Source: Spirochaetales bacterium (GTDB taxonomy: Bacteria > Spirochaetota > Spirochaetia > JAIPGG01). From it: 64,000 nucleotides of DNA. The notes under the pieces are model-generated. The model saw nothing but the letters and a program-made list of their open reading frames with translations. It was not told the DNA's origin and did not search any database. Of this stretch, positions 1,904 to 62,083 are shown piece after piece. Location of the stretch: NCBI GenBank assembly GCA_021736255.1, contig JAIPGG010000001.1, positions 11,506 through 75,505 of the forward strand, written 5' to 3'. The translations under genes and the position numbers were made by a program. The first letter of the stretch is position 1. Every line of letters starts with the position of its first letter.

Positions 1904-3463
1904 ATGGAAAAACAAAGCATAAATAGCATCGAAGAGGATTTAGGAAAGCTGAAGAATGCGGTAGCCGGTTTCATAACCGACATAGCGCAAATCTCGGATG
2001 TCAATGACGCATTTGTCCAAGAAATTCTCGAGGCCTCAAAAAAGAACAGCATCTCCATCGAGGATGTCTTCGGTGAACTCAAGGAGGTAAAAGAGGGTTC
2101 TCAGGATATTTACAAACGGGTTGATGACTCGGGTCGAACCATCCATCAGAGTATGGGGGATATCAACCAATCGATTACATCGATGAGCGGTATTATCTCC
2201 TCCCTGTTCGAGAAATTCCATGAGTTGAAAAGTATTTTCAGCAAGGTCGAGGATGCAAGCAAGAATGTGATAGAGAGAATTGCCGAGGTGGAAGATGTTG
2301 CCGACCTGACTCACATGCTTGCCCTGAATGCTGCTATAGAGGCCGCCCGGGCAGGGGAGGAGGGAAAGGGATTTTCGGTAGTTGCCAAGGAGGTCCGTTC
2401 TCTTGCCGAACGGAGCAAGAAGATCTCCGGGGAGGCTGCTGATATTGTAACTACCCTGCGGGAGCACCTGAGGCAATCCGATACGTCACTTTCCGAATAT
2501 GAAAAGATACAGCGCAATGCCTCAGAAGCAGCTGCTTCTACGGAGAACAATCTCGAATCCACTACGCAGAGTATCGATACGGTACTGAATGAAGTAGACA
2601 GCATCAAAACAATAGTCGGCCATCAAACGGAGGAAATCGAATCGATGTTTTCCGAGATGGCCGGGGTTCGGGAAAATGTACTTTTCATGGAATCGAGTTC
2701 GAACAAGATCGTGAAGAACATGAAGCTGCAGCAGAACAAGGTGCAAAAGATCCAATCCAAAATTGAAGATAGGTTTGCAGCCCACGAAGGAACAAGAAAA
2801 GAACAAGCCTCCATTATTGTGGGTCATGACAGCGCCTATCCTCCCTGGGTTTACCTGGAAGACGGAGAGAGCAGGGGTGTCAGTATCGATGCGGTCAAGG
2901 ATATTGCAGGCAAGCTCTCGATAGACGCGGATTATTATCCCAACCAGTGGGCGAATGTGTATCCGGCGCTGTTGAACAAAAAGATCGATCTGGTAGTGAA
3001 CGTGGGCTGGCCGAACGATCAGATCGATACGCAGAAGGTTATCGCTACCTCGCCCTATGAACACTTTGAAACAACCCTTTTTATCAAACGGGAAGACTAC
3101 GAAAAACGAGAAGGCGGTATCAGAGTCCAAGAGCTCGAGGGAAAAAAGGTTACCGCCCAGAGCGGTTCCTACACGGACCAGGACCTCGCAGAAACCGGCT
3201 GCGAGATCGTGTATGTAGACAACGACATCCAGGCCTTCGTCAAGCTCATCTGGAACAAGGTCTATGCCGTTGCCACCGACCGCCGGGTGGGAGAGCATAT
3301 CTCCGAGGTTTTTTTCGAGAACGAGATCGTACCGGCCTCCGATCCCCTCGGCAAGACCGATGTGGTCATGATCTGCAGGCGAGAGGACCAGGAGCTCTAC
3401 CGGAAGATCGAGGACGCCTTGAGGTACAGGGAGCAGAGTATAAAGCCTGCAATGAAGAGGTAA
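1904..3463 (+). CDS. Soluble methyl-accepting chemotaxis protein: an N-terminal MCP signalling (MA) domain fused to a C-terminal periplasmic-binding-protein type 3 (SBP_bac_3/PBPb) domain, with no TM or HAMP segment.
   Basis: The MCP highly conserved domain is present ('[38 protein letters not shown]'). The C-terminal roughly 220 aa ('[34 protein letters not shown]...[11 protein letters not shown]...') is typical of amino-acid/solute-binding family 3. There are no hydrophobic segments. Confidence 0.7.
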
Positions 3464-3505: not shown

Positions 3506-6436
3506 TTGCTCCTGGGCAGTCTTGCTAGTATGCTTAATGAAAAGGGAGTTACTATGTTTTTTATTCTAGGTGTTCTTTTCCTTCTGGCGGGAGCTATTCC
3601 GCTTATCCTTACATTAAAACGGCGCGATTCTTACTCGGAGGATCAATTCCGCCATAAACTGAAAAAGGCGGTGATCGTCCTCATTGTTGATATTGCGGCA
3701 TTGATCATCATAAACGTTTATTTTTTCTTTTTTACAGATTTTCTCTGGTTTAAATCACTCGGATACGAGAACCGTTTTCTGCTCGTATTGCAAACCCGGA
3801 TTGTTCTCTTTTTTATCGGTGCCGCCATTGCCTATGTGTTTTACTCCTCTCATGTTCGAGCATCCCGCCTGGTCGGAGGAGCGGATATTCCCACGGCTAC
3901 TGCATTGCCGGTAGTGATCGTGTTGACTGTTATCAGCGCCGTCTGGGCTTCAAACCTGTGGGACAGTTATCTGCTGTTTGCAAATCAGGCGGAGACCAGC
4001 CTCACAGATCCGATTTTTGGTCAGTCGATTTCGTTTTATCTGTTCTCCCTGTCGTTTCTTTCAAACGTAGTTGGCTGGTTTATCTTCCTTTTTGTTGTTT
4101 CGATTGCCGTTCTGGGATTTCTTGCCAACGGAATCAACAACAAACTGAACAGCCCGGCGGAAGAAGAAAACGCTATGCTGAACCAGCAGATGAATTTGAT
4201 CGTTCAGCGTTTGCTTCTTCTCGGGGGCTTCTTGTTTCTGCTGATAGCCTTTAACACCTATTTGGGTATTTTCCGGCTTCTGTATTCTCCCGAAGGAGTA
4301 GTTACCGGAGCAGGCTGGACGGATATTCATGTGCGTCTCCCAGCTCACTATGTCTCTGTTGTCGTCTTTGCTTTGCTCGGTGTTTTATTGATTATCGGGG
4401 GTTTCAAGCGTTCGTTTCTAGCGAAACTCTTTGCATTACGTACTGATTCAAACAATAAAATAAAAACCTCACGGGCCACCTGGATCTTCCCTGCCGGTGT
4501 TATAGCGGTGCTCGTACTTGCAAATGGGATAATCCCTGCTCTTGTTCAGAGCGTAATCGTCGAACCAAATGAATTAACAAAAGAGCAGCAATATATTCCG
4601 CATAATATAGATAATACCCGTAAGGCATATGGAATCGACGAAGAGCGGATTACCTCCCGGACGTACGAAGTCGGAACCGATGTTGACCGGACCATTACCG
4701 AACAGAATCAGAGCACTATAGATAATATCCGGTTGTGGGACTGGCGGGCCCTTCGAAGCAACCTGCAGCAGCAGCAGGAAATGCGGCTATACTACAATTT
4801 CCATGATGTGGATATAGACAGGTATAACTTCGGAGGTGATTATCGGCAGGTTATGCTCTCGGTGCGGGAAATGGAAAAAGCAGATTTGGCGCCGGAATCG
4901 CAAACCTGGATGAACCGTCACTTGAAATATACGCACGGTTACGGATTGGTCATGATTGATTCCCATGAATTCAAAACCCAGGGCGGTCCTCAACTGCTGG
5001 TAAAAGGTATACCCCCGGAGGAGACAGTCGAGGATTTCACTATAGAACGGCCTCAGATTTACTATGGGGAGCGAACGAATGACCATGTTTATGCAAACAC
5101 AACACAGCAGGAATTCGACTATCCCAGCGGGGACGAGAATAAATATACCGACTACACAGGAAAAGGCGGCGTAGTACTGGATTCTTTTTGGAAGCGGTTT
5201 GTCTATGCCTGGAAGTTCGACGGCTACAGACAGCTGTTTTCCGGTTATTTCACCCGGGAGAGCCGGGTTATGTATAACAGAAACATCCTCAGCAGGGTGA
5301 AGCGTCTGGCCCCTTTCCTGCGGTTGAGTTCCGACCCCTATGCGGTCGTTACCGACAAGGGAGAGATAAAATATATCGTCGATGCCTACACTGTCTCCCG
5401 TCACTATCCCTATTCCGAAGCCTACAGGGGGTCAATGCAGCAATATGCCGGGATCAACTACATTCGCAATTCAGTCAAGGTTGTTGTCGATGCCTACAAC
5501 GGAGAGACTACTTTTTATCTGATGGAACCGGATGATATAATTGCCACTACCTACGGAAACATGTTTCCCGAGCTTTTTCGCCCCTTCGAGAAGATGCCGG
5601 AATATCTCAAGAAGCATATACGGTATCCCGCGGAATACTTCACAATTCAGGCGGAAATGTACCGCACCTACCACATGACCGATGTCGGCGCCTTTTACCA
5701 GAGGGAGGATGTCTGGGAATTCGCTACCGAGAGGTACGGGGAGGGATTTCTCCCTGTTCAGCCCTACTATATCATGGTCCATTTTCCCGAAGAAGAACAA
5801 ATGGAATATGTTATCATGCTTCCCTTCACTCCAAAAAACAAAAACGTTATTAATGCCTGGCTTGCAGGCCGTTCCGACGTTCCGAACTACGGAAAGGTAA
5901 TGTCTTTTGCGTTTCCCAAAGGAGTGGAAGTGCTCGGACCGAGGCAAATCGAAGCAAGAATCGATCAGGATTCAGAGATGTCGAGGAATCTGAGTCTTTG
6001 GAGTCAGCAGGGCTCGGATGTAATACGCGGTAATCTCCTTGCCGTCCCTCTGTTCAAAGAAGAAACCATGTACATCATGTTTGCCGAATCGATTTTCATT
6101 CAGGCCGAAGGAGCCAAACTTCCCGAAATCAAGCGGGTTGCCCTGGCGGATCAGGAGCAGGTTGTGTGGGCTGAAACATTCGAGGCCAGCCTCCGAAAGC
6201 TTGCCGGCGTTGCAGCCCCTCCCTCTGAGCAGGCAGCCGGAGAAGCGGCACAGGCGGCTGCAGCCGCAGGAGGCGAGAAGCGGGTTGTCTTGCCGCAGGA
6301 TCTGCAGAATAAGATCGACGAAGCGGTAAGCACCTTCGAAGCCTATACCGACGCTGTTTCTCAGTCCAATTTCCAGGAGGCCGGAGAAAAACTCGACACC
6401 CTAAAAGGACTCATTCAGGAATTGAAGGACCGATAG
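3506..6436 (+). CDS. UPF0182 family integral membrane protein (COG1615-like): N-terminal multi-TM region plus a large extracytoplasmic domain.
   Basis: 976 aa, with about 7 predicted TM helices in the first roughly 330 aa and then a large soluble domain with an Ala/Gln-rich C-terminal tail. Size and architecture are characteristic of UPF0182. The start could be a downstream Met (3530 or 3554). Confidence 0.6.
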
Positions 6437-14438: not shown

Positions 14439-16142
14439 ATGTTCTGGAATTCCCGAAGAACTATACGAGCAGTCATCCCGCCGCTTTTCATATTCATTTT
14501 ATTTGCCGGAGTTCTTTTTTTTATCATTATTCCGCAGTCACGGTCGCTCCTTTTTCATCAGATACAAAAGAACAGTGAGGACAATGTTGATCTTGTGCTC
14601 AGGTTGATCGAGTATCATCACAGCAGGGCAGAAGAGGGCGAAATTCCGGTAAGCACGGCAAAACAACGCGCCCTCGATCAGGTTCGGAATCTGCGCTATG
14701 GGCCACAGGAGCGGAACTATTTCTGGATCTGTGATTATCAGCCGATACTGCTCATGCACCCCTATCGAAGCGATTTAGAAGGAAAAAACGTCGGATCATA
14801 TACAGACCCTGAAGGAAACAAGGTCTTTCAGGAAATGGTTGAACTCGTTAAGAAAAGGGGAGAGGGGTATACAGACTACCAGTGGCAATTCCATGGTGAT
14901 CGGTCTCAGGTAGTTTCGAAACGGTCTTATGTCGAGGGTTTTGAACCCTGGCAATGGATCGTAGGGACCGGTATTTACCTCAGTCAAGCTGAAGCGCTCA
15001 TAGACCGGCTGATTCGTTCTTCTACACTAATTGCCCTCATAGCTCTGGCTGTTATCGGATTCGGGGCGTTCTTCCTGGCAAATCGCTCGATTCGCCTCTT
15101 GAGAATATTCGAAACGAGTCAGGCCAATCTTGAGCTCGCCAATCGACAGTATCGTGATCTCGTGGAAACGATGAATGACGGCTTGATTGTGCTCGACCGG
15201 CAGTGGAATATTCGGTACACGAATAAAGCATTTCAGAATATGTTGGATTATACCCAATCCGAATTGGCGGGAAAGCATCTCGACCAGATTGTGCCGGTTT
15301 CCGAGCGTACGATACTCGATGAACAGTTGGAGAAAAGAAAAAAAGGGGAAGATGAGCCCTACGAGATTACATTTAAAAGGAAAAATGGAAAGGTAATTGA
15401 GTGTGTATGCTCCCCGAAACCGATATTTACCCGTGAGGGACTCTTTCACGGGAGTTTCGCCGTGATAACGGATGTGAACACGTTGAAATCAGTGCAAAAA
15501 GATTTGGAAGCAGCTCTTGAAGAAAAGAACCTTCTGCTGCGCGAGGTCCATCATCGGGTAAAAAACAATCTCCAGATTATCTCGAGTATGCTCCACTTGC
15601 AGCAGGAGTCGGTAACGGACCAGAATGCCTGGGCTGCTTTGCGCGATTCCCAATATCGTATCGAAACCCTTGCTCTCGTACATTCGTTCTTATACAGCTC
15701 CGAACAATTCGGTACAATACCCTTGCCTGAATACATCAATGATTTAGTTGCCTCCTTGAGTTCTGCATACGATGTACATGGGAGGAACATTACCATTTCT
15801 GCCGATGTGGCGGATATCGAAATCGGTATCGATCAGACGAATCCCTTGGCGCTGATAATTACCGAGCTGGTTACGAACTGCTTGAAACACGCTTTCCCGG
15901 AGAGGGATACCGGGAGCATCGAAATCACCGTGGCTTACGAGAAGGAACAGGCGGCCGGCACGGTAACCGTGTCTGACAACGGAATCGGGATACAACAAAA
16001 CAGGCAGGACTCCGGTTCGATAGGCATGATGCTGGTCCATGCCATGGTCGATCAGCTGAACGGCAGTATCGAAGTCCATTCCAATGAAGGGACGGTGATA
16101 ACCATTACGGCACCTCTGAAAGTTAAAAATCAGAAGGGATGA
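14439..16142 (+). CDS. Membrane sensor histidine kinase: periplasmic Cache-like sensor domain, PAS domain, HisKA_2 (HWE/HisKA_2-type) dimerisation domain and HATPase
   Basis: Two TM segments flank a roughly 150-aa extracytoplasmic region. PAS region 'MNDGLIVLDRQWNIRYTNKAF'. HisKA_2 signature 'EVHHRVKNNLQIISSMLHLQ'. HATPase motifs 'ELVTNCLKHAF', 'VSDNGIGI', 'GSIGMMLV'. No response regulator is adjacent. Confidence 0.75.
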   Translation: MFWNSRRTIRAVIPPLFIFILFAGVLFFIIIPQSRSLLFHQIQKNSEDNVDLVLRLIEYHHSRAEEGEIPVSTAKQRALDQVRNLRYGPQERNYFWICDYQPILLMHPYRSDLEGKNVGSYTDPEGNKVFQEMVELVKKRGEGYTDYQWQFHGDRSQVVSKRSYVEGFEPWQWIVGTGIYLSQAEALIDRLIRSSTLIALIALAVIGFGAFFLANRSIRLLRIFETSQANLELANRQYRDLVETMNDGLIVLDRQWNIRYTNKAFQNMLDYTQSELAGKHLDQIVPVSERTILDEQLEKRKKGEDEPYEITFKRKNGKVIECVCSPKPIFTREGLFHGSFAVITDVNTLKSVQKDLEAALEEKNLLLREVHHRVKNNLQIISSMLHLQQESVTDQNAWAALRDSQYRIETLALVHSFLYSSEQFGTIPLPEYINDLVASLSSAYDVHGRNITISADVADIEIGIDQTNPLALIITELVTNCLKHAFPERDTGSIEITVAYEKEQAAGTVTVSDNGIGIQQNRQDSGSIGMMLVHAMVDQLNGSIEVHSNEGTVITITAPLKVKNQKG

Positions 16143-51596: not shown

Positions 51597-52670
51597 ATGA
51601 ATGCCGGAGCGAATTTCCTGCAGCGCCTTCTCGGGCGTCTTTCGAAGCGGAATGCAATCAAGGAATTGCGCAACAGGATTGCAGAAAAAGGGATCGAGAG
51701 CATCGATCATGAATACGTTGGAGAACTGGAATCGCGATACGGCGTTTCCTTCGATCGCGATCTTTCCGAAGAAAGGAAAGCCGTGTATAGAGATTTTCTC
51801 GATGCGTGCCTGACCGACAAATGGCTCGACAACAATGAAATCAGCGAGCTCCGCAGGCTGCGGGATCTCCTCGGGCTGACTGATCGGCAGGAACGGGAAG
51901 TGCGGGAAGCGGCAGTTACAGAGGTCTATCGGGAAACATTGAAAGAGGCGTTGGCCGATAATGAGATCAACGAAGATGAACGCCGCACCCTGCAGCTCAT
52001 GCAGGAGAACCTGGCCATTTCCGAAGAACAGGCTGCGCGTATTTACCGGCAAACGGCTACCGAGCGTCTGCAGTCTATTCTCGACAAGGCGATCTCCGAC
52101 AAAGAGCTTTCCCCGGAAGAAGACAAAGAGATGGAGCAGGTGGCACGGAATCTCGGGATAACCCTTTCCTTGTCCGACAAGACGAAAGCTGCACTCGAGC
52201 GCTACCGTCTGTACTGGCAGATCAAAAACGGCGAGCTTCCCGAGCCGGCGGTGACTTTGAATCTGTCCAAAGGGGAACACTGTCATTTCTTTGCCAATAT
52301 CAACTGGTACGAACTCCAACAGGTGACTCGGCGGACTCGCTCGGGCGGGCCGACATTTCGGCTAAAGTTGATGAAGGGAATCTATTGGCGGATGGAGAAT
52401 CTAGGGCTTCGGCGGCTCAGTGAAGATGAAATGACCCTCGTCGACAGCGGTACGGTTTATCTAACCAACACGCGTCTCTTGTTTCTTGGTTCACGGAAAA
52501 ACAGTATGATCCGGTTGAATAGCATTTTGGATTACGAGGTCTATTCGAATGGGGTTCAGCTGCAAAATAGTTCAGGAGCAAGCCCGTTTTTAGAGTTCTC
52601 GAAGAACGTGGATCTTTTTGCCCTGATTCTTGCCCGTCTGCTCCGACAGAGAAGCTATTCCAAACAATAA
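51597..52670 (+). CDS. Hypothetical protein with N-terminal TerB-like helical repeats and a C-terminal bacterial PH (bPH/GRAM-like) domain
   Basis: Repeated 'ISELRRLRDLLGLTDRQ...'/'DERRTLQLMQENLAISEEQ...'/'EEDKEMEQVARNLGITLS...' helical units. The C-terminus 'MTLVDSGTVYLTNTRLLFLG' resembles the bPH beta-strand pattern. Weak evidence. Confidence 0.3.
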   Translation: MNAGANFLQRLLGRLSKRNAIKELRNRIAEKGIESIDHEYVGELESRYGVSFDRDLSEERKAVYRDFLDACLTDKWLDNNEISELRRLRDLLGLTDRQEREVREAAVTEVYRETLKEALADNEINEDERRTLQLMQENLAISEEQAARIYRQTATERLQSILDKAISDKELSPEEDKEMEQVARNLGITLSLSDKTKAALERYRLYWQIKNGELPEPAVTLNLSKGEHCHFFANINWYELQQVTRRTRSGGPTFRLKLMKGIYWRMENLGLRRLSEDEMTLVDSGTVYLTNTRLLFLGSRKNSMIRLNSILDYEVYSNGVQLQNSSGASPFLEFSKNVDLFALILARLLRQRSYSKQ

Positions 52671-52701
52671 TCATTCGCGATTACAGCCTTTTCTTATTAT
52701 A

Positions 52702-54678
52702 ATGAAAACTATGGAAAATGTTTTTTCAGGAAATTCCGGGGAGGGGTGTTTTGATTATCAGCAAGCCGCAGAGGACCTGAGGGCCGAAAGCGGTGCAAAA
52801 TATGTAGTCTTCAACGAGCTCATCAGGGGCGAAAAGCTTCTTGAAACAAGGGCAATAGCAGGGGGAAGTGAACAGATTCGCAAGGCCGCCGGTTTCCTCG
52901 GGCTCGATCTTGTCGGTTCGAAATGGGAACCGGATGAACTCGTAGAGCGAGTGATCAATATGCCCAGCCTGAGTTATCTCGGAACACTTCCCGATGTAAG
53001 TATGAACCAAATTCCCGCGCCGCTGGGCCTCGCTGTGTCCCGGATGTTCGGGGTTGATGCTGTCTATGGAATGGGGCTTCAAACCGGAGGGGAAAAACTC
53101 GGGTTCTTCCTTTTTTTTCTTAAGAAGGGAGAGGAGCTCAGGAATGCTTCGCAGCTCGACCGGATCATCCGGTATATCGGCATAGCCCTCAAGGCCGTAC
53201 GGGAGAGGAACGCCCTGCCGGCGGGGGATGTGCTCGGTGACATCCGGGTGGAATCAGAGCGGGAGGAAATCGAGGAAGCTCTGGTTCCTGAAATCCTCTA
53301 CCAACTCGATGACCAATCGCGCGTTGTTTTTCTCAGCCGCGCCATAACCCGGTATGGATATCAGCCGGAAGAACTGATCGGCCGGAGTGTGTTTGAAATC
53401 ATTCATCCCGAGGACCGGGAACGAGCCCAGTGGCGGATAAACGAGCGGCGCACAGGGGAAAGACGTACCTTTCAGTTCGAACTCCGCCTGCTTCCAAAGG
53501 ACCGGGAGCCAATACGCTTTTCAGTTTACGGGTATCAGCTGGAAATCGATCCGGTAATTGTTATCGATGCCAGGGGCTTATACCGGGAAGATGAGGCCGG
53601 AAAGAAAACCTTTCAGGGAACGGTGGGGGTGGCTCGTGATATGACCCAGGTTCGGGCCCTCGAAAAGCAGCTTTCGGAGCAGAAAATCATCTCCGACACC
53701 ATAGCAGAGGCTATTCAGGAGGCAATATGGGTTGAGGAATCCGGTCCCAAGCGAATTCTGTATGTTAATAAGGCCTTCGAGAATATGTTCGGGAACTCTG
53801 AAGCCTGGCTCTCGGTCGTCCACCCGGAAGACCGGGAAAAGATGAGAAAGCGAAGCGAAGACCCTGCTTCCACAGAGGAGTTTCGGGAATACCGCATTCT
53901 CTCCGGTGATAGCGTGCGGTGGATCAGGTCCATTCTCTTTCCTGTTCGGGTTGATGCGGAGGGGACCCCCAACCGCTTCGTAGGGCTTGCTGAGGACATC
54001 ACCTCCCTCAAGGAGAGAGAAAATGAACTAAAGCAGTCCCTGGAAGTGAAGACTCTGCTGATGCGGGAGATTTATCACCGGGTAAAAAACAACCTGATGA
54101 TTATCGACAGCATCATTTCGCTCGAATTGGCTGATATGCCCGACAAAGATATGTCCGCGCGCAGCGTCCTTCAGAGCGTTCAGTCGCGGATCGCCACCAT
54201 GGGGATCATACACCAGATGCTGTTTCGCGATTCGGGGCACAGTGATGCGCGGCAGGGAGAGCTGGATATACGGGAGTATCTTGACTATTTGCTCGATTAT
54301 CTGCTGAGAAGCTTGACCGAGGACCCGGGAAGGATTCGAGTCCATTCTCAGGTCGATACGATAATGCTTGATTCTGATCAGGCGGTGCCTCTTGGGTTGA
54401 TTGTAACGGAACTGATAATAAACGCGCTGAAGTATGGTTTTCCAGAAGGACGCTCCGGGCGGCTCGAACTCCACTTTCAGGAAATCGGTGAGGAGTATCA
54501 TCTCATCGTATGGAACGATGGTCCTCAGTATGGAAAAACCGGTACGAATCAGAACGGGGTGCACTTGGGTTTTCAACTCATCGAGACCCTCACCGAGCAG
54601 CTGGACGGCAGATGCATCTTTCCCGAAGAGGGCGGGGATGCCCGGTTTGAGATAGTAATTCCTCGGCGTTCGGATTAG
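52702..54678 (+). CDS. Cytoplasmic sensor histidine kinase: GAF-like domain, two PAS domains, HisKA_2 and HATPase (HWE/HisKA_2 class)
   Basis: HisKA_2 box 'EIYHRVKNNLMIIDSIISLE'; HATPase 'ELIINALKYGFPEG', 'VWNDGPQY'; PAS regions 'SRAITRYGYQPEELIGRSVFEIIHPEDRE' and 'KAFENMFGNSEAWLSVVHPEDRE'. The listed ORF starts at 52630; I prefer Met 52702 because it avoids an overlap with the upstream gene. Confidence 0.7.
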   Translation: MKTMENVFSGNSGEGCFDYQQAAEDLRAESGAKYVVFNELIRGEKLLETRAIAGGSEQIRKAAGFLGLDLVGSKWEPDELVERVINMPSLSYLGTLPDVSMNQIPAPLGLAVSRMFGVDAVYGMGLQTGGEKLGFFLFFLKKGEELRNASQLDRIIRYIGIALKAVRERNALPAGDVLGDIRVESEREEIEEALVPEILYQLDDQSRVVFLSRAITRYGYQPEELIGRSVFEIIHPEDRERAQWRINERRTGERRTFQFELRLLPKDREPIRFSVYGYQLEIDPVIVIDARGLYREDEAGKKTFQGTVGVARDMTQVRALEKQLSEQKIISDTIAEAIQEAIWVEESGPKRILYVNKAFENMFGNSEAWLSVVHPEDREKMRKRSEDPASTEEFREYRILSGDSVRWIRSILFPVRVDAEGTPNRFVGLAEDITSLKERENELKQSLEVKTLLMREIYHRVKNNLMIIDSIISLELADMPDKDMSARSVLQSVQSRIATMGIIHQMLFRDSGHSDARQGELDIREYLDYLLDYLLRSLTEDPGRIRVHSQVDTIMLDSDQAVPLGLIVTELIINALKYGFPEGRSGRLELHFQEIGEEYHLIVWNDGPQYGKTGTNQNGVHLGFQLIETLTEQLDGRCIFPEEGGDARFEIVIPRRSD

Positions 54679-54728: not shown

Positions 54729-56900
54729 GTGATGGAAAAAAGGATCGAACAGATGGATCAGAACAAGCAAGAGGTTATTCAGCTTCCTCGCGGAGGCTAT
54801 TTGGCTCATACTCCGATAGGACCGATACAGTTCGGTTCCCCGCCGGAAACAATAAAAGATACCATGGGTACTGAGCACGGCGTTCCTCAGTATTTTGTTC
54901 TTCCGAAAAAGTTTTTCAACTGGATCAAGGGAATAAGCGTGGCCGAGGTCGAATTCCCGTTATACTACAATTTCTTTTTAAAAAAACGGAAGACTACCAT
55001 TATCTGTACCCCGGAACAGCATAAGCGGTTTATGGCGGCATTGCAGCAGGCGGTATTCGGTCCGGAAGATCTCGATCTCTTGCAGAACTACAGCTCGGAA
55101 CTCGATCCGGAGGATCTGCCTCCTATCAAGGCGGAGCTCGATTTTTTTCGTCACGGACTGCAGCTCGATGACCTGGTTGAATTCCGGTTTTTCGAAAATG
55201 ATCAGGTACTCATTGAAGATCTGAAAATCGAGCTCGAGGAAGACAAAGAGTTTCTCCTGAGCCGCCGGGGGGAGGAACTTGCCAGGGTGCCGGCTATGAT
55301 CGAGTACCACCCTACCTATGATATCGGACGCCGTTTGCCGGAACCCTACAAACCGCCTTTGTTCGGCGTAACCTGTCTGGGGCCGAGCCATGGTTTTGAT
55401 CCAACCGAAAACACTTCGGGATTTATTCTGTGGATGAACCGTCGGGGAATCATGATCGACCCACCCGTCAATACGACTGAGTGGCTGGTGGCATCGAATG
55501 TCAATCCGAAACTCATCGACAGTATTATTCTTACCCACTGTCATGCCGATCACGATGCCGGCACCTTTCAAAAGATACTCGAAGAGAGCAAGGTCGATGT
55601 CTACACGGTTCCGACTGTCATGAACAGTTTCCTCCGGAAATACAGCGCCCTTACCGGGGTTTCGCGGGAATATCTGCAGCAGCTCTTTGAATACCGGCCG
55701 GTCAGTATCGATCAACCGGCCTTTATAAACGGGGGGAAATTCACCTTTCATTTCTCTCTCCATTCGATACCCACGATCGGATTTCAGCTCGAACACGAAG
55801 GTGCATCTTTTGTCTATTCTTCGGACCACAACAATGACCCGGAGATTCACAAAAAACTCTATGACGAGGGGTTGATCTCTCAAAAACGCTACGAAGAGCT
55901 CCTCAATTTTCCATGGTATGCCGACCTGATCTATCACGAAGCCGGTATTCCCCCTCTTCATACCCCGGTAACCGTCCTCAACTCACTTCCAACAAAGATC
56001 AGGAAGAAAATAATCACCTACCATATTGCCAAAAAGGATTTTCCTAAACGCACACCGCTGCGCCTTGCCCAGTTCGGTATCGAACACACTGTTACCATGC
56101 CCGTTAAACCGCCGGACCATGAAGGTGCGTATCATATACTCGGCTTGCTCGACCATCTCGATATCTTCGAAGATATTCCCGTCCGAAAAGCCCGCGAGTT
56201 CGTCAGCATCGTAAAGGAAGAGTCGTTTCGAAAAGGATCAAGGATCATCGAAAAGGGTACGGTGGGAGACAAATTCTACATAATCAAATCCGGCAATGTA
56301 GCGGTTCTGGGAAAGGACCTCGAGCACAGAAAGATTTACGGAGCCTATGATTATTTTGGAGAGGTCGCTCTGTTGACCAGTGCTCCCCGGACTGCAGATG
56401 TGGTTGCCGAAACGGATGTTTCTCTCTACACCATTGAAAAGGAGAAATTTCTTCATTTTATCCGGAATACCGATCTCGATCACACGCTGCGCAGGCTCAC
56501 CCAGATACGGGACAGCGAAACCTGGAACATACTCTCGACCAGTCCGATTTTACGAATTTTGACGAGTACACAGAAGACTCTGCTCGAGTCGATGCTCCAC
56601 AAGCGGACAATAGACAAGCCGGGTACTCTTGTCGAAGAGGGAGCGCAGTACCGGCAGATCTATATTATCAGGGACGGCTCGGTTGAAGTCAGGGATGGTG
56701 GAGAAAAGGTAACCACGCTCGGACGGGGAGATTTTATCGGTGCAATGGGGAAAATCCACCGGAATGAACCTGCCTCGGTTAGCTTTCAGAACACAACCCC
56801 CCTGAAGGTGTATATTATGAAGAAGGAAGATGTCATTGCCTTTCTCAAAAAGAACCCGGGCCTGATTATGAAGCTGGACTATGATTATCCGGGGGCATGA
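54729..56900 (+). CDS. Three-part protein: N-terminal domain of unknown function, metallo-beta-lactamase-fold hydrolase domain, and two C-terminal cyclic-nucleotide-binding (cNMP/CAP-type) domains
   Basis: MBL signature 'IILTHCHADHDAG' (HxHxDH). cNMP-binding cores 'YFGEVALLTSAPRTADVVA' and 'GDFIGAMGKIH...' follow glycine-rich beta-roll segments ('IIEKGTVGDKFYIIKSGNV', 'LVEEGAQYRQIYIIRDGSV'). Confidence 0.7.
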   Translation: MMEKRIEQMDQNKQEVIQLPRGGYLAHTPIGPIQFGSPPETIKDTMGTEHGVPQYFVLPKKFFNWIKGISVAEVEFPLYYNFFLKKRKTTIICTPEQHKRFMAALQQAVFGPEDLDLLQNYSSELDPEDLPPIKAELDFFRHGLQLDDLVEFRFFENDQVLIEDLKIELEEDKEFLLSRRGEELARVPAMIEYHPTYDIGRRLPEPYKPPLFGVTCLGPSHGFDPTENTSGFILWMNRRGIMIDPPVNTTEWLVASNVNPKLIDSIILTHCHADHDAGTFQKILEESKVDVYTVPTVMNSFLRKYSALTGVSREYLQQLFEYRPVSIDQPAFINGGKFTFHFSLHSIPTIGFQLEHEGASFVYSSDHNNDPEIHKKLYDEGLISQKRYEELLNFPWYADLIYHEAGIPPLHTPVTVLNSLPTKIRKKIITYHIAKKDFPKRTPLRLAQFGIEHTVTMPVKPPDHEGAYHILGLLDHLDIFEDIPVRKAREFVSIVKEESFRKGSRIIEKGTVGDKFYIIKSGNVAVLGKDLEHRKIYGAYDYFGEVALLTSAPRTADVVAETDVSLYTIEKEKFLHFIRNTDLDHTLRRLTQIRDSETWNILSTSPILRILTSTQKTLLESMLHKRTIDKPGTLVEEGAQYRQIYIIRDGSVEVRDGGEKVTTLGRGDFIGAMGKIHRNEPASVSFQNTTPLKVYIMKKEDVIAFLKKNPGLIMKLDYDYPGA

Positions 56901-56912
56901 GTCTTTACAAAA

Positions 56913-57866
56913 TCAATCGTCGTCCCGGCGGGTGTCGAATACGGCCCAGAGAGGGCGGTGATCGCTTACGGCAAGGCTCGCTTTTCGATCATCATTGTCG
57001 TATTCGATTTCGTCGAAGAAGTAGACCCCCCAGCGGCCGGTGAATTCAGCGTTCCCGGTGTGCTCGGGGGAAAACCGGATATTGTCGTAGAGGCGGTCTC
57101 TGATACTGGTAGGAAGGATCGGGTTTACCGGATCGGTGATACGGTCCAGGCCGGTAAAGGCCTCGTCATCCGGAGGCAGGTTGAAGTCCCCGGCAAGCAA
57201 GAGGTCCTTTTCTCCCTCGAGCTCTACCAGCATCCCCTTATAGAGTAAATCCAGGAGCCTTACTTCCCCGCGCCGCTGACGGATGGAATCTCCGTAGATA
57301 ATGTGGATCGTCATCACGAAAAAATCGAAGTTTCCTGCCCGAAACCCGGCCACGTAAGGCTCGCGGATAAAGTAATCCTTCTCGTCTGAAATCATGTAGG
57401 TTTTTCTGAACAGCTCGATTCTGTCATCTCGATAGAGAAAGGCGTACCGCTCGGTGATCCCCCGGCCAACCGGTGGAGACACAATATATTCATACCCAAG
57501 ATCATAATCCCTTTTGAGCATGGCAACCGTACGCTTTAGAATCTGTTCGTCTCGAACTTCTTGAAGGGCAATCAGATCGAAATGTTTCAGTATATCGCAA
57601 ATTGCCGAGAGCTCATGCTCGTTTCTCGATCCGTCGGAGAAGATTCGAATATTAAAGGTGGCTATGGATATCTCGTGATCTACTGTGACGGGCAGTTCCC
57701 GAGACTGAGCGCCGATATTCGGGGGAACAGCGGCAAAAAGAATAGAGAGAACTATCGGAAATATGATCCGGACAAGACCGGATGGGTTATTTTTTCCCTG
57801 TCTCAAAGAGTTTCTCGAGTATCTGAGTGTAGTCTTGCTTTGTGTAAACGGGTATGTTGTTTTCAT
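56913..57866 (-). CDS. Secreted endonuclease/exonuclease/phosphatase (EEP) family protein
   Basis: Signal-anchor 'LVRIIFPIVLSILFAAVPPNIGAQS'. EEP motifs 'IATFNIRIF', 'DLIALQEV', 'LLAGDFN', 'SDHRPLWAVF'. The start is uncertain: the listed 57926 and the Met at 57866 both overlap the upstream ADH 3' end. Confidence 0.65.
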   Translation of the reverse strand: MKTTYPFTQSKTTLRYSRNSLRQGKNNPSGLVRIIFPIVLSILFAAVPPNIGAQSRELPVTVDHEISIATFNIRIFSDGSRNEHELSAICDILKHFDLIALQEVRDEQILKRTVAMLKRDYDLGYEYIVSPPVGRGITERYAFLYRDDRIELFRKTYMISDEKDYFIREPYVAGFRAGNFDFFVMTIHIIYGDSIRQRRGEVRLLDLLYKGMLVELEGEKDLLLAGDFNLPPDDEAFTGLDRITDPVNPILPTSIRDRLYDNIRFSPEHTGNAEFTGRWGVYFFDEIEYDNDDRKASLAVSDHRPLWAVFDTRRDDD

Positions 57867-59046
57867 TCGATCCGTTCGATGCAGCACGTTCTGCGATGAG
57901 GGGGATGTCTTCCGGTGGAACGGCAAAACTCGAAAAATCCGGCAGACCGACTTCTGCGGACAACCAGCGAACGCGATTTATGGCGGAAAGAGCACTGTTT
58001 TTGGGTTCCTCCGATTCATCTGTGCTCATAGCAGCGGATAAGGCTGCATAGCGGTCTGCTATCGATAGATCAGCCGATTCTCCCCTGGCAAGATTGAACT
58101 CCATGACCTCCGGAAGGCAGACGGAGTTTGCCGCGCCGTGGGGTATATCGTACAAGCCGCCGAGGGCCTCGGCTATGCAATGAACAGCTCCAACATCCGC
58201 ATGGCTGAAGGCAAGCCCTGCCAGTAGACTGCCGCTCATAACGGCGGATCTGGCTCGGCTGTCTTTTCCGTCTTTTACAGCTGTGGGAAGCCGGCGGCTT
58301 AAGAGTCCGGCTGCATGAAGTGCGCAGGCATCCGAAATGGGTTCGGATGCCTGTGAGGTATAGGCTTCGATTGCGTGGGTAAGGGCATCCATGCCTGTTG
58401 CGGCGGTGAGTGCCGGCGGAAGGGTGTGGGTGAGCTGTGGATCGATGATCGCCAGGGCCGGAGCGATGGCCGGGGTTTTTATCGTAAATTTTGTGTTACG
58501 GGTTGTGTCGGTAATAACTGAGCTGAAGGTTACTTCGCTTCCTGTTCCTGCGGTTGTGGGTACGGCAATCAAGGGGGGTATAATCGAAGCTGATTTGTTC
58601 TCACGTGCTTTCGAAAGCAGAGAATCGACTTGATCCCTGTCTTGAAATAGCGCAGGTTCTCCGCCCAATCCCGCTGTGAGTACTGCTGCTTTCGCAGCGT
58701 CAATAGCGCTTCCTCCTCCAACGGCTACGACCATACCAGCTTGGAAGTCATGAAACAAAGCCGCTATAGCCATGACCTCACTGTCCTTCGGGTTTGCCGT
58801 TACCTTGGAATAGATTTCAATTCCGTACCCGGCTGTTTCAAGCATATCAACAATTGCAGAGAACCATAGCTGTTTTTCGATTCCATTGTCCGTTACCACG
58901 AGTATTCTGCAGGCGGAGTTATTGGAGGAAGGAAGGGCCTCCTTGAGTTTTTCCGGGAGAAGATTGACGGCTCCTTCACCGAATTCAATTTTTGTAGGAA
59001 GAAGAAAAGAAAATGAGGTTGTTTTAAACATATACATTATTGATAT
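57787..59046 (-). CDS. Iron-containing (group III) alcohol dehydrogenase
   Basis: 'VAVGGGSAIDAAKA' NAD-binding GGGS motif, and 'GMDALTHAIEAYTS' and 'HCIAEALGGLYDIPHGAANS' metal-binding His motifs. The listed ORF is from 59313, but I prefer the Met at 59046 ('MYMFKTTSF'). Confidence 0.8.
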   Translation of the reverse strand: MSIMYMFKTTSFSFLLPTKIEFGEGAVNLLPEKLKEALPSSNNSACRILVVTDNGIEKQLWFSAIVDMLETAGYGIEIYSKVTANPKDSEVMAIAALFHDFQAGMVVAVGGGSAIDAAKAAVLTAGLGGEPALFQDRDQVDSLLSKARENKSASIIPPLIAVPTTAGTGSEVTFSSVITDTTRNTKFTIKTPAIAPALAIIDPQLTHTLPPALTAATGMDALTHAIEAYTSQASEPISDACALHAAGLLSRRLPTAVKDGKDSRARSAVMSGSLLAGLAFSHADVGAVHCIAEALGGLYDIPHGAANSVCLPEVMEFNLARGESADLSIADRYAALSAAMSTDESEEPKNSALSAINRVRWLSAEVGLPDFSSFAVPPEDIPLIAERAASNGSNENNIPVYTKQDYTQILEKLFETGKK

Positions 59047-59173
59047 TCTTTCTTCCGGAAATTTGCAAATTCGCTCGTGATTATTTGCACTATCTTTTCG
59101 GAAATACCTGCGGTTCCTCTTTTTTCGACACGAAAATGACGATATTCTATATAGTATCCGAAGGAGGAAACTG

Positions 59174-59965
59174 ATGAACCTACGTCCATTTCGAGATATA
59201 AGGGTGGGGATACGGCCGCCGAAACGTGTATGGATTCTCCTGTCTGTTGCCGCTTTCCTGTTTTTTTTCACATTGCTTCCTTTGAGTTCGACCTCGATCC
59301 GGTCGATCACCACTGTGGAGTCGGAACTTTATTCTTTTGATGACCACACCTGGGACATAGAAGAGGTCGGTATATTCAGTGTTACAGAACAGTTGAGTAT
59401 AGTCGGGAAGGTGCAGTGGTACCAAGAAACCTGGAAACAGGGGGTCAAAGGGATGGCAGGCGTCGTGTTTCCGGTTATCCCCTCCTCATACATGGAAACA
59501 TCCTATGGGCTTGCTTTTGAGGATACTGGTGATATTGTTCATCACGCCCTAGCTGATTTTTACTATGAACATCCGGCTTTTCTGGGGCTGCTCAGTGTCC
59601 GCGCCCAATTTTCCGATAACGGTCAAGTCTATATGCCTTCGGTCGGCATTAAGTGGTATACCACCGACCGCCTTTCTTTGTGGGGAAAATATACAACATC
59701 CATCGACACAGTTATTGGCTTCGACCACTCCTTCTGGGGGGAAGCGGAATATAAAATTCTGGACCCTCTTCTTCTAAAGGCAGGAGGAACAATCGGTTCA
59801 TATCATGCGGATGAATCGAGTCCTCAGGAACTGGAATATTCCTTTCTCGGCGGACTGGGATTTCTCCCAATGGAAATGATCAAATTGTCCTACCAGTTTG
59901 AATATACAATCCGGCAGCAGTATGGAATAATCAGTAATGCTCTTATTCTTGATGCGAGGTTGTAA
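59174..59965 (+). CDS. Hypothetical secreted/outer-membrane protein
   Basis: N-terminal hydrophobic segment 'VWILLSVAAFLFFFTLLPLSS', then alternating aromatic/hydrophobic beta-like strands. No family recognised. Confidence 0.35.
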   Translation: MNLRPFRDIRVGIRPPKRVWILLSVAAFLFFFTLLPLSSTSIRSITTVESELYSFDDHTWDIEEVGIFSVTEQLSIVGKVQWYQETWKQGVKGMAGVVFPVIPSSYMETSYGLAFEDTGDIVHHALADFYYEHPAFLGLLSVRAQFSDNGQVYMPSVGIKWYTTDRLSLWGKYTTSIDTVIGFDHSFWGEAEYKILDPLLLKAGGTIGSYHADESSPQELEYSFLGGLGFLPMEMIKLSYQFEYTIRQQYGIISNALILDARL

Positions 59966-60004: not shown

Positions 60005-62083
60005 GTGAATACCGCTGAAGCGGTTGAACTTTCGGAGGGAATATTTTGGGTAGGTCAGGATCAGGACCTGAACGGGCTCCATTGCAACGCCTATCTTTTA
60101 ACCGAAGGCGAGCAGGGAGTGTTGATCGATCCGGGCTCGAACCTCGACTATAAGGAAGTTCACCGCAAGACTACCGGGATTCTCCCGATCGAAAAGCTGG
60201 AATACATTATACTCCTCCACCAGGATCCGGATGTTGCATCGAGTGTCCCGCGGTTTCAGGAGGCCGGCTTTACCGGGCAGATCGCAACCCACTGGCGGAC
60301 TTCGCTCATAGCAGCGTATTATGGAATTAATCCTCCCTGGTATCTGGTAAACAAAAAAGGATATAAAATAGTATTCGGCGGCAGGGAGGAACTCGACCGC
60401 GGCGCAAACAACACCTATGGGGAAGGAGAATTGTCCGCAGGCCGCGAACTCGAAGTCATTCCCGCCCCTTACCTGCATTTTCCCGGCGCTGTCATGATTT
60501 ACGATTCCCGTTCGAGAATTCTTTTTTCCGGGGATGTTTTCGGTGCAATTTCAAAAGACTGGTCGCTTTTTGCCGATTCGAATTACACCGAAGGTATGCT
60601 CCGCTTCCACCGGGAATATGTGCCTTCGAACGATATAATAAGACCGGTGATGGAGAACTTGCTCGAGAGAAAGATCGATATGATCTGCCCTCAGCATGGA
60701 TCAATCATTTCAGATAATATTCCTGAATATATTCGTGCGCTCAGAGATCTTGAATGCGGAATATATTTGGAACCTGTAAGAAAAGCTCTTTTGGAGGATG
60801 TCGGATATACCCATCTGGTAAATAAGGTTCTCGGCGCTCTCGTCGAAAGCTATGGAGTCGCTTCTGTTCTCGAAACCTTTGCAGATACAGATGTCATGTT
60901 GGATCAGGCGACAGGTATGCTGCAGGATTATGCAGGAGATCTGGAAAATCTCTGGAATGAACTCTTTGAACAGATATACATCTTTCGAGGTATTGACTGG
61001 ATAATGCTGCTCGAGCCGTTGGTTCGTAAAATTGAACACAACTACGGCATACATAAACCTGTTATTTACCAGAATGAACTGTTTCGAACACAACAGCAGA
61101 TGAATGTTTTGCTGAAAGAAAAGCAGCGGCTCGAGGCGATCAATCAAAGCCTGAGGAACAACCTCAATTTTACCCAGGAGGCCATGACCAAGGATTCGGT
61201 CACCGGTCTGTTCAATGAGGATTTTTGTGTCCGCTTTCTGCTGAATATTTTCAATCAAGAACAATGGGATGACTTCTCGGTTCTTTTTTTCCTCATCGAT
61301 GATATGAAACAGATTAACTCTACCTATGGTGAACGCGCCGGCAATGATATCCTGGAAAGTACTGGAGCAGTTTTATTTTACCAGAAGCATGACGATGATA
61401 CCTTGTTTAGGATAAGCGGCCCCGCTTTTGCCCTGGTGACAAGTGTCCGGGATCAGGAAGATCTCCTCGGCTATGCGGAAAAATTCAGGGTAAGTATAGA
61501 GAATGACAGAGGGTTCCTCACAAAGGTTACCGTTTCGGTGGGCATTGTCCGGGTGCAGAATAGTAAATTAGCTGAACAGTCCGCTCCTGAAAGCATGGAG
61601 CAGATTTTTTCCCGGGGGAGGATGTCTCTTCGAAGCGTCCAGCGGGAAGGCGGTAACCGTGTGCTTTTCGATTCCGATATACAGGGCAGGGACGAAGACA
61701 ATGGGCGGGCAGTCATTCTGGAATTCGATCAGTTCCATGCCAGACTGATTCGTGAATCACTCGAAGCACTGTCCATCGAAACTCGAGTGTGCATGAATGG
61801 GCCGGAAGCTGTACAAACAGCACTTGAATTTCATCCGGATGTTATCGTTTCAGAACTTTTTCTATTGGAAAATGATGCCTTTAGTGTTCGTGAAGATCTT
61901 ATGGAATATACGAAGACGAAGGACATCCCCTTTATACTCATTTCTCATCAGAAAAACGAAGCCATGGTTATCCGAGCCCAGAGTCTGGGTATACTTCATT
62001 ATATAAAAAAGCCCTATATGCTCCCCGAACTCTTGGGTTTGATTACCAGTTATGTCCAGCAGGCGTTTCGGCATGAGCCTTGA
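60005..62083 (+). CDS. Multidomain signalling protein: N-terminal flavodiiron/ODP-like MBL-fold diiron domain, degenerate GGDEF domain and degenerate receiver (REC-like) domain
   Basis: GTG start with a GGGAGG RBS. N-terminal '[33 protein letters not shown]', '[13 protein letters not shown]', '[11 protein letters not shown]...[10 protein letters not shown]', 'ICPQHGSII' align with the flavodiiron-protein diiron site (HxExDH / H / D / H), with E->D and the fourth ligand H->V. The middle section is GGDEF-like with 'RISGPAF' in place of 'R-GG(D/E)EF'. The C-terminal REC-like fold has '[11 protein letters not shown]', i.e. Glu at the phospho-acceptor position. Confidence 0.65.

What the first reader, a model, noticed from the sequence alone, without database searches (positions are those of the whole stretch)
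54729..56900. MBL-fold hydrolase fused to two cNMP-binding domains behind a 250-aa domain of unknown function
A 723-aa protein carries a canonical metallo-beta-lactamase metal site 'THCHADHDAG' in its centre. Two CAP/cNMP-binding modules sit at the C-terminus, each with a Gly-rich beta-roll and an 'FGE(V)AL...R(T)A' phosphate-binding-cassette-like core. The N-terminal quarter has no recognisable motif.

MBL-fold enzymes include class II cyclic-nucleotide phosphodiesterases. An MBL enzyme allosterically gated by (or acting on) cyclic nucleotides would be a self-contained cNMP feedback module.

It sits between an orphan PAS-GAF histidine kinase and the diiron-GGDEF* protein, which suggests a neighbourhood that integrates second messengers.
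Basis: partly seen in the sequence, partly recalled or inferred. Interest (0 to 1): 0.7.

Follow-up and report, generated by a model that had tools for sequence, protein, structure and literature searches.

The report
Cyclic-nucleotide-gated MBL phosphodiesterase, GbpA/GbpB type
This spirochaete gene most likely encodes an enzyme that destroys cAMP or cGMP and is switched on by the same molecules; the design is already known from the amoeba Dictyostelium and already annotated, so it is an ordinary finding apart from a hidden, inactive second copy of the catalytic fold at the front of the protein.

Summary
The ORF is real. The maximal ORF is 54729-56900; the likely CDS is 54753-56900 (715 aa).

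Pfam finds an MBL domain and two cNMP-binding (CNB) domains. All MBL metal and catalytic motifs are invariant in 58 homologues.

An identical protein is already in NCBI, named "cAMP/cGMP-dependent 3',5'-cyclic-AMP/GMP phosphodiesterase". The architecture matches the characterised Dictyostelium enzymes GbpA and GbpB: an MBL phosphodiesterase (PDE) followed by two activating CNB domains.

Many protists also carry it.

- Only the first CNB domain has the phosphate-binding Glu and Arg. The second lacks both, family-wide.
- The "unknown" N-terminal region is, by predicted structure, a truncated MBL fold without metal ligands. With the catalytic domain it forms a tandem like long-form RNase Z.
- The neighbouring genes are not conserved, so nothing supports a second-messenger neighbourhood.

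The catalytic domain is structurally closest to Apyc1, PhnP and yeast PDE1.

Verdict: a new, biochemically untested bacterial member of a known kind. Interest is low to moderate.

The parts
54753..56900 (+). Likely CDS (715 aa plus stop) of the cNMP-regulated MBL phosphodiesterase. The maximal ORF starts at the GTG at 54729.
   Evidence: ORF list and translation. 100% identical to NCBI protein P0001, 715 aa. AAGGA box 8 nt upstream of the ATG at 54753.
54753..55352 (+). N-terminal domain (res 1-200): a degenerate, truncated MBL-like fold with no metal ligands. 'YFVLPKKFF' sits where HxHxDH would be. The conserved core is res 8-105 (54774-55067), containing LPRGG and GSPPETIKD.
55353..56117 (+). 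Catalytic MBL domain (res 201-455). Motif I is D236 (55446-55466). HxHxDH is H262/H264/D266/H267. Motif III is H337. Motif IV is D358. 'YHEAG..LHTP' holds H395/E396/H403. Motif V is H424.
55533..55562 (+). THCHADHDAG metal-binding motif (MBL motif II).
   Evidence: Translation check. Invariant T261-G270.
56118..56507 (+). CNB-A (res 456-585): a canonical cyclic-nucleotide-binding domain. Its phosphate-binding cassette FGEVALLTSAPRTADVVA lies at 56355-56408.
   Evidence: PF00027. PDB matches to PKG and PKA-R CNB domains. F535, G536, E537 and R546 are 58/58; position 547 is A40/S7/T6.
56508..56897 (+). CNB-B (res 586-715): CNB fold with a degenerate cassette, GDFIGAMGKIHRNEPASVSF (56727-56786). 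It has no phosphate-binding Glu or Arg.
   Evidence: Second PF00027 stretch. Column counts. Also degenerate in eukaryotic relatives.

Best explanation
The gene encodes a soluble, four-domain 3',5'-cyclic-nucleotide phosphodiesterase of the Dictyostelium GbpA/GbpB type. This type is called 'class IIb', or the atypical class II MBL PDE group.

Shown here:
- an MBL catalytic domain with a complete, invariant binuclear-metal ligand set;
- two CNB-fold domains following it;
- full-length homology to a large family found in Spirochaetota, to at least one sequence labelled Planctomycetota, and to many protists.

Inferred mechanism:
- The MBL domain hydrolyses cAMP and/or cGMP to the 5'-monophosphate.
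- The nucleotide binds the one canonical site, CNB-A, and relieves autoinhibition. Degradation therefore accelerates as the messenger rises (substrate-activated feedback).
- CNB-B is a pseudo-site that serves as a structural or relay element.
- The N-terminal pseudo-MBL domain packs against the catalytic domain as an intramolecular stand-in for the second protomer of the homodimeric relatives (Apyc1, YhfI, RNase Z), as in long-form RNase Z. It probably contributes conserved polar residues to the single active site.
- cAMP is the more likely ligand family-wide, because the consensus cassette is 'RAA', as in PKA. This particular protein has 'RTA', as in PKG, so cGMP is not excluded.
For: Domains and motifs:
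- Two PF00027 matches, E 5e-32, plus MBL families above threshold.
- D236, H262, H264, D266, H267, H337, D358, H395, E396, H403 and H424 are invariant in 58 homologues and kept in eukaryotic relatives.
- The CNB-A Glu and Arg are 58/58.

Family:
- The identical NCBI protein is named 'cAMP/cGMP-dependent 3',5'-cyclic-AMP/GMP phosphodiesterase'.
- Eukaryotic relatives named 'cGMP-dependent 3',5'-cGMP phosphodiesterase A' share 34-43% identity over 500-800 residues, including the N-terminal domain.
- GbpA and GbpB are described as MBL PDEs activated by cNMP binding to two downstream CNB domains (PMC11988041; PMC4758236).

Fold:
- The top sequence-level PDB hits include Apyc1 and YhfI.

Pseudo-dimer:
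- The N-domain matches only MBL folds.
- Its secondary-structure order equals the first two thirds of the catalytic domain.
- The full model aligns 357 residues to human ELAC2 and 362 to yeast long RNase Z. An MBL domain alone aligns about 205-228 residues.
- pTM is 0.89.
- The N-core is as conserved as the catalytic domain.
- In Apyc1, residues of the opposing protomer are needed for catalysis (PMC9117128).
Against: - No biochemical data exist for any bacterial member in the literature I could search.
- Dictyostelium sequences themselves were not available for direct comparison.
- Pfam and NCBIfam place the catalytic domain only in generic MBL families. The weak best NCBIfam hits are RNase Z.
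- The pseudo-MBL assignment rests on a predicted structure. Foldseek TM-scores are only about 0.4, and profile-profile comparison shows no sequence trace of duplication.
- I could not inspect coordinates, so the interface and the contribution of N-domain residues to the active site are inferences.
- One CNB site is degenerate, so the two-site activation described for GbpA/GbpB may not transfer directly.
Confidence: 0.7

Rival explanations
1. A cNMP-regulated nuclease or other phosphodiesterase. The MBL domain would cleave RNA (RNase Z or RNase J-like), 2',3'-cyclic phosphates or cyclic dinucleotides. The cyclic mononucleotide would be only the allosteric signal, not the substrate.
Against: The RNase Z models score 28.6 bits against a cut-off of 293. 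The best structural neighbours are cNMP and cyclic-phosphate PDEs. The homologous Dictyostelium enzymes are reported as cAMP/cGMP PDEs. Related stand-alone MBL PDEs (Rv1339, YhfI, Apyc1) hydrolyse cyclic mononucleotides.
Confidence: 0.12
2. A constitutive cNMP phosphodiesterase. The CNB domains would not gate activity, serving instead for dimerisation or localisation, or sensing a different small ligand.
For: CNB-B lacks the phosphate-binding Glu and Arg family-wide. Some distant relatives (P0125, P0134) have also lost the CNB-A Arg. CNB folds are known to bind other ligands (general knowledge).
Against: The CNB-A Glu and Arg are invariant in 58/58 close homologues. This argues for selection on cNMP binding. 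The Dictyostelium precedents are cNMP-activated.
Confidence: 0.12
3. A phage-defence or counter-defence component: an Apyc1-like degrader of Pycsar or CBASS signals, or a cNMP-sensing effector.
For: Apyc1 is the best structural match. PADLOC models of Pycsar effectors match the CNB region.
Against: The PADLOC matches cover only the CNB domain. PF23023 (Apyc1) does not match this protein, and scores 11-13 bits against a cut-off of 50 in eukaryotic relatives. The gene recurs across spirochaete genomes, and where a neighbour does recur it is housekeeping (NAD kinase, HisI, MnmG and RecN by my reading of the sequences), each in at most 11 of 80 loci.
Confidence: 0.03

Closest known systems
Dictyostelium discoideum GbpA (PdeD/PDE5) and GbpB (PdeE/PDE6): 'class IIb' cNMP-stimulated MBL phosphodiesterases
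   Same: An MBL catalytic domain followed by two CNB domains, and the proposed logic of cNMP-activated cNMP hydrolysis (PMC11988041). The NCBI name of the identical protein derives from these enzymes (the origin of the name is my own knowledge). Protist homologues named after PdeD align full-length, N-terminal domain included.
   Different: This protein is bacterial, compact (715 aa, no low-complexity inserts) and biochemically untested. Only one CNB site is canonical here.
Apyc1, YhfI and Rv1339: 'atypical class II' (PF12706) stand-alone MBL cNMP phosphodiesterases
   Different: Those enzymes are single-domain proteins of about 250 aa, and homodimers where this was determined (Apyc1, YhfI), with no CNB domains. 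Here a degenerate MBL copy in cis appears to replace the partner protomer. The PF23023 family test is not met.
Long-form RNase Z (human ELAC2, yeast Trz1)
   Different: There is no significant sequence relation and the RNase Z family models are not met. I did not test for the tRNA-binding exosite. The substrate is presumably a cyclic nucleotide. The duplication may be independent.
Typical class II PDEs (PF02112: yeast PDE1, Dictyostelium PdsA, Vibrio CpdP)
   Different: PF02112 is not detected. Those enzymes have no CNB regulatory domains.
PKA-R / PKG tandem CNB modules
   Same: Two consecutive CNB domains. CNB-A has a canonical cassette and strong matches to PKG and PKA-R.
   Different: The tandem is attached to a hydrolase rather than a kinase. 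The second site is degenerate.

Membership tests
GbpA/GbpB-type (class IIb) cNMP-stimulated MBL phosphodiesterases | MBL catalytic domain with HxHxDH and the full set of metal ligands | tested here: met
   Pfam MBL families are above threshold. D236, H262, H264, D266, H267, H337, D358 and H424 are invariant.
GbpA/GbpB-type (class IIb) cNMP-stimulated MBL phosphodiesterases | Two CNB domains located C-terminal to the MBL domain | tested here: met
   Two PF00027 stretches after the MBL domain. The architecture is described in PMC11988041.
GbpA/GbpB-type (class IIb) cNMP-stimulated MBL phosphodiesterases | Full-length sequence homology to eukaryotic members | tested here: inconclusive
   34-43% identity over 500-800 residues to protist proteins, two of them named 'cGMP-dependent 3',5'-cGMP phosphodiesterase A'. 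The Dictyostelium sequences themselves were not available, so the link is indirect (names plus architecture).
GbpA/GbpB-type (class IIb) cNMP-stimulated MBL phosphodiesterases | Hydrolysis of cAMP/cGMP that is stimulated by cNMP binding | not testable with these tools
   Needs enzyme assays.
Canonical cNMP-binding site (PBC with Glu and Arg) | FGE...R[AST]A cassette in CNB-A | tested here: met
   F535, G536, E537 and R546 are 58/58.
Canonical cNMP-binding site (PBC with Glu and Arg) | FGE...R[AST]A cassette in CNB-B | tested here: not met
   The equivalent columns hold G/S/A and P/A. There is no Glu or Arg here, in the 58 homologues, or in six distant or eukaryotic relatives.
Typical class II PDE (Pfam PF02112 PDEase_II) | Match to the family model | tested here: not met
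   PF02112 is not reported even at E<=10. There is only fold similarity to yeast PDE1.
Apyc1 anti-Pycsar nuclease (Pfam PF23023) | Match to the family model above the gathering score (50 bits) | tested here: not met
   No hit for this protein. Eukaryotic relatives score 11-13 bits. Apyc1 is nevertheless the best structural neighbour.
RNase Z (TIGR02651 / NF000801) | Match above the curated cut-off | tested here: not met
   28.6 bits against a cut-off of 292.95.
Tandem pseudo-MBL plus MBL architecture (as in long-form RNase Z) | N-terminal domain with an MBL fold but no metal ligands, packed against the catalytic MBL domain | tested here: inconclusive

The most novel reading that the evidence does not exclude
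The family, from spirochaetes to protists, would be an intramolecular pseudo-dimer. An ancient, now sequence-unrecognisable duplicate of the MBL domain replaces the second protomer of homodimeric cNMP phosphodiesterases and supplies conserved residues (R13, E32, K35, D36, E67, N73) to a single active site. Only one of the two CNB domains still binds nucleotide. That would be a new structural and allosteric solution for cNMP PDEs, parallel to ELAC2. It would also give a bacterial source or counterpart for the eukaryotic GbpA/GbpB enzymes.
Probability: 0.45. Interest if true: 0.45.

Novelty: new member of a known kind. Interest (0 to 1): 0.3.

Why it matters
If the bacterial proteins behave like GbpA/GbpB, spirochaetes (relatives were found in MAGs labelled Leptospira and Treponema) have a conserved, substrate-activated cAMP/cGMP phosphodiesterase. 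I found no experimental work on such an enzyme in the literature I could search. It would be a natural handle for studying cyclic-nucleotide turnover in this phylum.

The predicted pseudo-MBL domain also explains a 200-residue region that no Pfam model in the 2025 copy searched here covers. It gives a testable reason why that region is as conserved as the catalytic domain.

None of this changes the overall picture: the architecture and its logic have been known since 2002 (the publication year of the GbpA/GbpB papers in the reference list read), and the protein is already annotated accordingly.

Tried and rejected
- **Conserved neighbourhood.** I ran tblastn of the seven window neighbours against 80 related loci and clustered the flanking ORFs. 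Nothing is conserved. The commonest neighbours each occur in at most 11 of 80 loci and look like housekeeping genes.
- **Cyclase in the window.** Pfam on 37 of the 49 window ORFs of at least 100 aa found none.
- **Sequence trace of an internal MBL duplication.** hhalign of the N-domain profile against the catalytic profile gave probability 1%, the same as the control against the CNB region. Rejected at sequence level.
- **Defence role.** PADLOC hits cover only the CNB domain. Rejected.
- **Exact-sequence contig look-up for P0001.** Nothing on record.
- **AlphaFold-database fold search.** The library was unavailable.
- **Original GbpA/GbpB papers** (PMC133600, PMC133599, PMC124474, PMC1783984). 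Not held.
- **Literature on a characterised bacterial member.** None found.
- **Promoter and terminator scan.** Nothing informative.
- **Taxon names for distant cluster representatives.** Mostly unnamed metagenome proteins.

Full report
**Observation**

An uninterrupted ORF runs from 54729 to 56900 on the + strand, 723 codons from a GTG. The likely start is the ATG at 54753. It follows an AAGGA box by 8 nt. It is the start of the 100% identical NCBI protein P0001 (715 aa). It is also where the homologues begin to align. All residue numbers below count from that Met.

Pfam finds two cNMP_binding stretches (PF00027, E 5e-32). It also finds Lactamase_B_2 and Lactamase_B above their gathering scores. 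'THCHADHDAG' lies at window 55533-55562. The first 206 residues match no Pfam family even at E<=10.

**What it is**

A search of 5.8 billion proteins returned 1863 relatives. The top 120 are all 704-796 aa, 55-72% identical and of the same architecture. The identical sequence is named by NCBI 'cAMP/cGMP-dependent 3',5'-cyclic-AMP/GMP phosphodiesterase [Spirochaetales bacterium]'.

The best 80 loci carry spirochaete labels, apart from one unlabelled metagenome chromosome. The labels include Spirochaetales, Leptospirales, Leptospira, Treponema and Marispirochaeta.

An exhaustive HMMER search with residues 1-462 (N-terminal region plus MBL) found 1366 clusters at 50% identity, 342 of them below 1e-30. 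Many are 800-2179 aa. Named examples are eukaryotic: Chlorokybus, Pavlova, Rhodelphis, and a Chloropicon 'guanylate cyclase' fusion.

A profile of eukaryotic members retrieved further relatives:
- Hondaea proteins named 'cGMP-dependent 3',5'-cGMP phosphodiesterase A';
- oomycete and Triparma proteins;
- a Planctomycetota protein.

These share 34-43% identity with the spirochaete proteins over 500-800 residues. The alignment shows that all four regions are shared, including the N-terminal 'LPRGG...QFG.PPETIKD...EFP.Y.NFF' block.

The architecture and the names point to Dictyostelium GbpA (PdeD) and GbpB (PdeE). [quoted passage not shown] PMC4758236 says the same.

**Catalytic domain**

In 58 homologues the following are invariant, and all are retained in eukaryotic relatives:
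- D236;
- the whole T261-H-C-H-A-D-H-D-A-G270 block;
- H337;
- D358 and H359;
- H395 and E396;
- H403;
- H424.

This is the full ligand set of an active binuclear MBL phosphodiesterase. It includes an RNase-Z-like 'HEA(T/G)' element; that motif assignment is my own knowledge.

At sequence level the weak best PDB hits include Apyc1 and YhfI. Apyc1, YhfI and Rv1339 are cyclic-nucleotide PDEs of the PF12706 'atypical class II' group (PMC9117128; PMC9293780).

The curated family tests are not met for RNase Z (28.6 bits against 293), Apyc1 PF23023, or typical class II PF02112. The domain is therefore a separate branch within this clade of phosphodiesterases.

**Regulatory domains**

CNB-A (res 456-585) has a textbook phosphate-binding cassette, FGEVALLTSAPRTADVVA. 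F535, G536, E537 and R546 are present in 58/58 sequences. The residue after the Arg is Ala in 40, Ser in 7 and Thr in 6, and this protein has Thr. By my knowledge of PKA and PKG, 'RAA' is PKA-like and 'RTA' is PKG-like. Ligand preference therefore cannot be fixed from sequence. cAMP seems more likely for the family, but cGMP is not excluded here.

CNB-B (res 586-715) is recognised as a CNB fold by Pfam. At the cassette it reads GDFIGAMGKIHRNEPASVSF. The Glu position holds G, S or A, and the Arg position holds P or A, across all 58 homologues and the distant or eukaryotic relatives.

**N-terminal region**

Foldseek agrees in ranking: Apyc1 is first, with E 4e-3 and probability 1.0. But TM-scores are only about 0.4 and no hit falls below 1e-3.

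The secondary-structure order of the N-domain is three strands, helix, strand, helix, strand, helix, short helices, then five strands. This reproduces the first two thirds of the catalytic domain's order. 'YFVLPKKFF' sits where HxHxDH would be.

The full-length model aligns 357 residues to human ELAC2 and 362 to yeast long-form RNase Z. An MBL domain alone aligns about 205-228 residues. This implies that both halves superpose at once, in the same order: a pseudo-domain followed by a catalytic domain.

Profile-profile comparison finds no sequence trace of duplication: probability 1%, equal to the control. The N-core (res 8-105) is as conserved as the catalytic domain. Both are 67% within Spirochaetota, and 47% against 49% towards distant or eukaryotic relatives. 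The CNB domains are more variable.

Apyc1 is a homodimer that needs two residues of the opposing protomer for catalysis. I therefore infer that the pseudo-MBL domain acts as a built-in partner protomer and helps form the single active site. This is inference from a predicted structure; I could not inspect coordinates.

**Context**

The gene is flanked by the following:
- upstream: a MatE transporter, a TerB-like protein and a PAS-HisKA_2 kinase, the kinase on the same strand with a 74-nt gap;
- downstream: convergent EEP and Fe-ADH genes, an unknown ORF, and an ODP-GGDEF-receiver protein 3 kb away.

Among 80 related loci, kinase-like sequences turn up in 2 and weak matches to the ODP-GGDEF protein in 3. 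None of these is shown to flank the gene, and one kinase match is on the opposite strand. The EEP gene turns up in none.

The commonest neighbours are, by my reading of the example sequences, NAD kinase, HisI, MnmG and RecN. Each occurs in at most 11 loci. No nucleotide cyclase was found among the 37 window ORFs scanned with Pfam. The idea of a second-messenger neighbourhood is therefore unsupported. The gene behaves as a stand-alone chromosomal gene. PADLOC matches are limited to the CNB domain, so a defence role is unlikely.

**Mechanism and rivals**

The best explanation (about 0.7) is a cNMP-activated cNMP phosphodiesterase of the GbpA/GbpB type. It would have one functional allosteric site (CNB-A), a pseudo-site (CNB-B) and an intramolecular pseudo-dimer.

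The rivals are:
- a cNMP-regulated nuclease or other phosphodiesterase (0.12);
- a PDE whose CNB domains do not gate activity (0.12);
- a defence or anti-defence role (0.03).

**Novelty and verdict**

The design has been known since 2002 (the publication year of the GbpA/GbpB papers in the reference list read), and this very protein is already annotated accordingly. What remains open:
- no bacterial member appears to have been tested;
- the N-terminal region, not covered by any Pfam model in the copy searched, is predicted to be a degenerate MBL copy;
- the second CNB site is degenerate.

This is a new member of a known kind. Interest is 0.3.

Noticed in passing
window 60005-62083 (+): A 692-aa protein combining an ODP-type oxygen-binding diiron MBL domain (PF19583, E 2e-55), a GGDEF domain and a C-terminal receiver domain. 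It is not linked to the target gene in other genomes.
   Followed up: partly
window 52630-54678 (+): The upstream histidine kinase has PAS domains, HisKA_2 and HATPase_c. Pfam detects no GAF domain, and its first ~210 residues match nothing at E<=0.001. A second HisKA_2 kinase with sCache and PAS domains lies at 14439-16142.
   Followed up: no
window 1904-3463 (+): A 519-aa ORF with an MCP signalling domain (res 100-252) N-terminal to a family-3 solute-binding domain (res 304-507). This is an unusual order for a chemoreceptor.
   Followed up: no
window 56913-57926 (-) and 57787-59313 (-): The EEP-family ORF and the Fe-ADH ORF overlap by about 140 nt on the same strand. The Fe-ADH domains begin only at residue ~106, so its true start is probably further downstream.
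   Followed up: no
proteins P0167, P0371 (Rhodelphis marinus) and P0271 (Chloropicon roscoffensis): Some eukaryotic family members carry extra catalytic modules. The Rhodelphis proteins have a class I PDE domain (PF00233). The 2113-aa Chloropicon protein is annotated as a guanylate cyclase.
   Followed up: no
proteins P0298-P0303, P0311, P0321, P0330, P0351 (unlabelled metagenome proteins, 713-750 aa): These compact proteins are 46-58% identical to labelled eukaryotic members, against 34-43% for the spirochaete proteins. They are either unlabelled eukaryotes or a bacterial group closer to the eukaryotic branch. This bears on the direction of any bacteria-eukaryote transfer.
   Followed up: partly
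window 51597-52670 (+): A 357-aa protein with weak Tic110-like and TerB-like matches, located between the MatE transporter and the kinase.
   Followed up: no
window 3506-6436 (+): A 976-aa UPF0182 family membrane protein with a very strong match (E 6e-245) and no known function.
   Followed up: no
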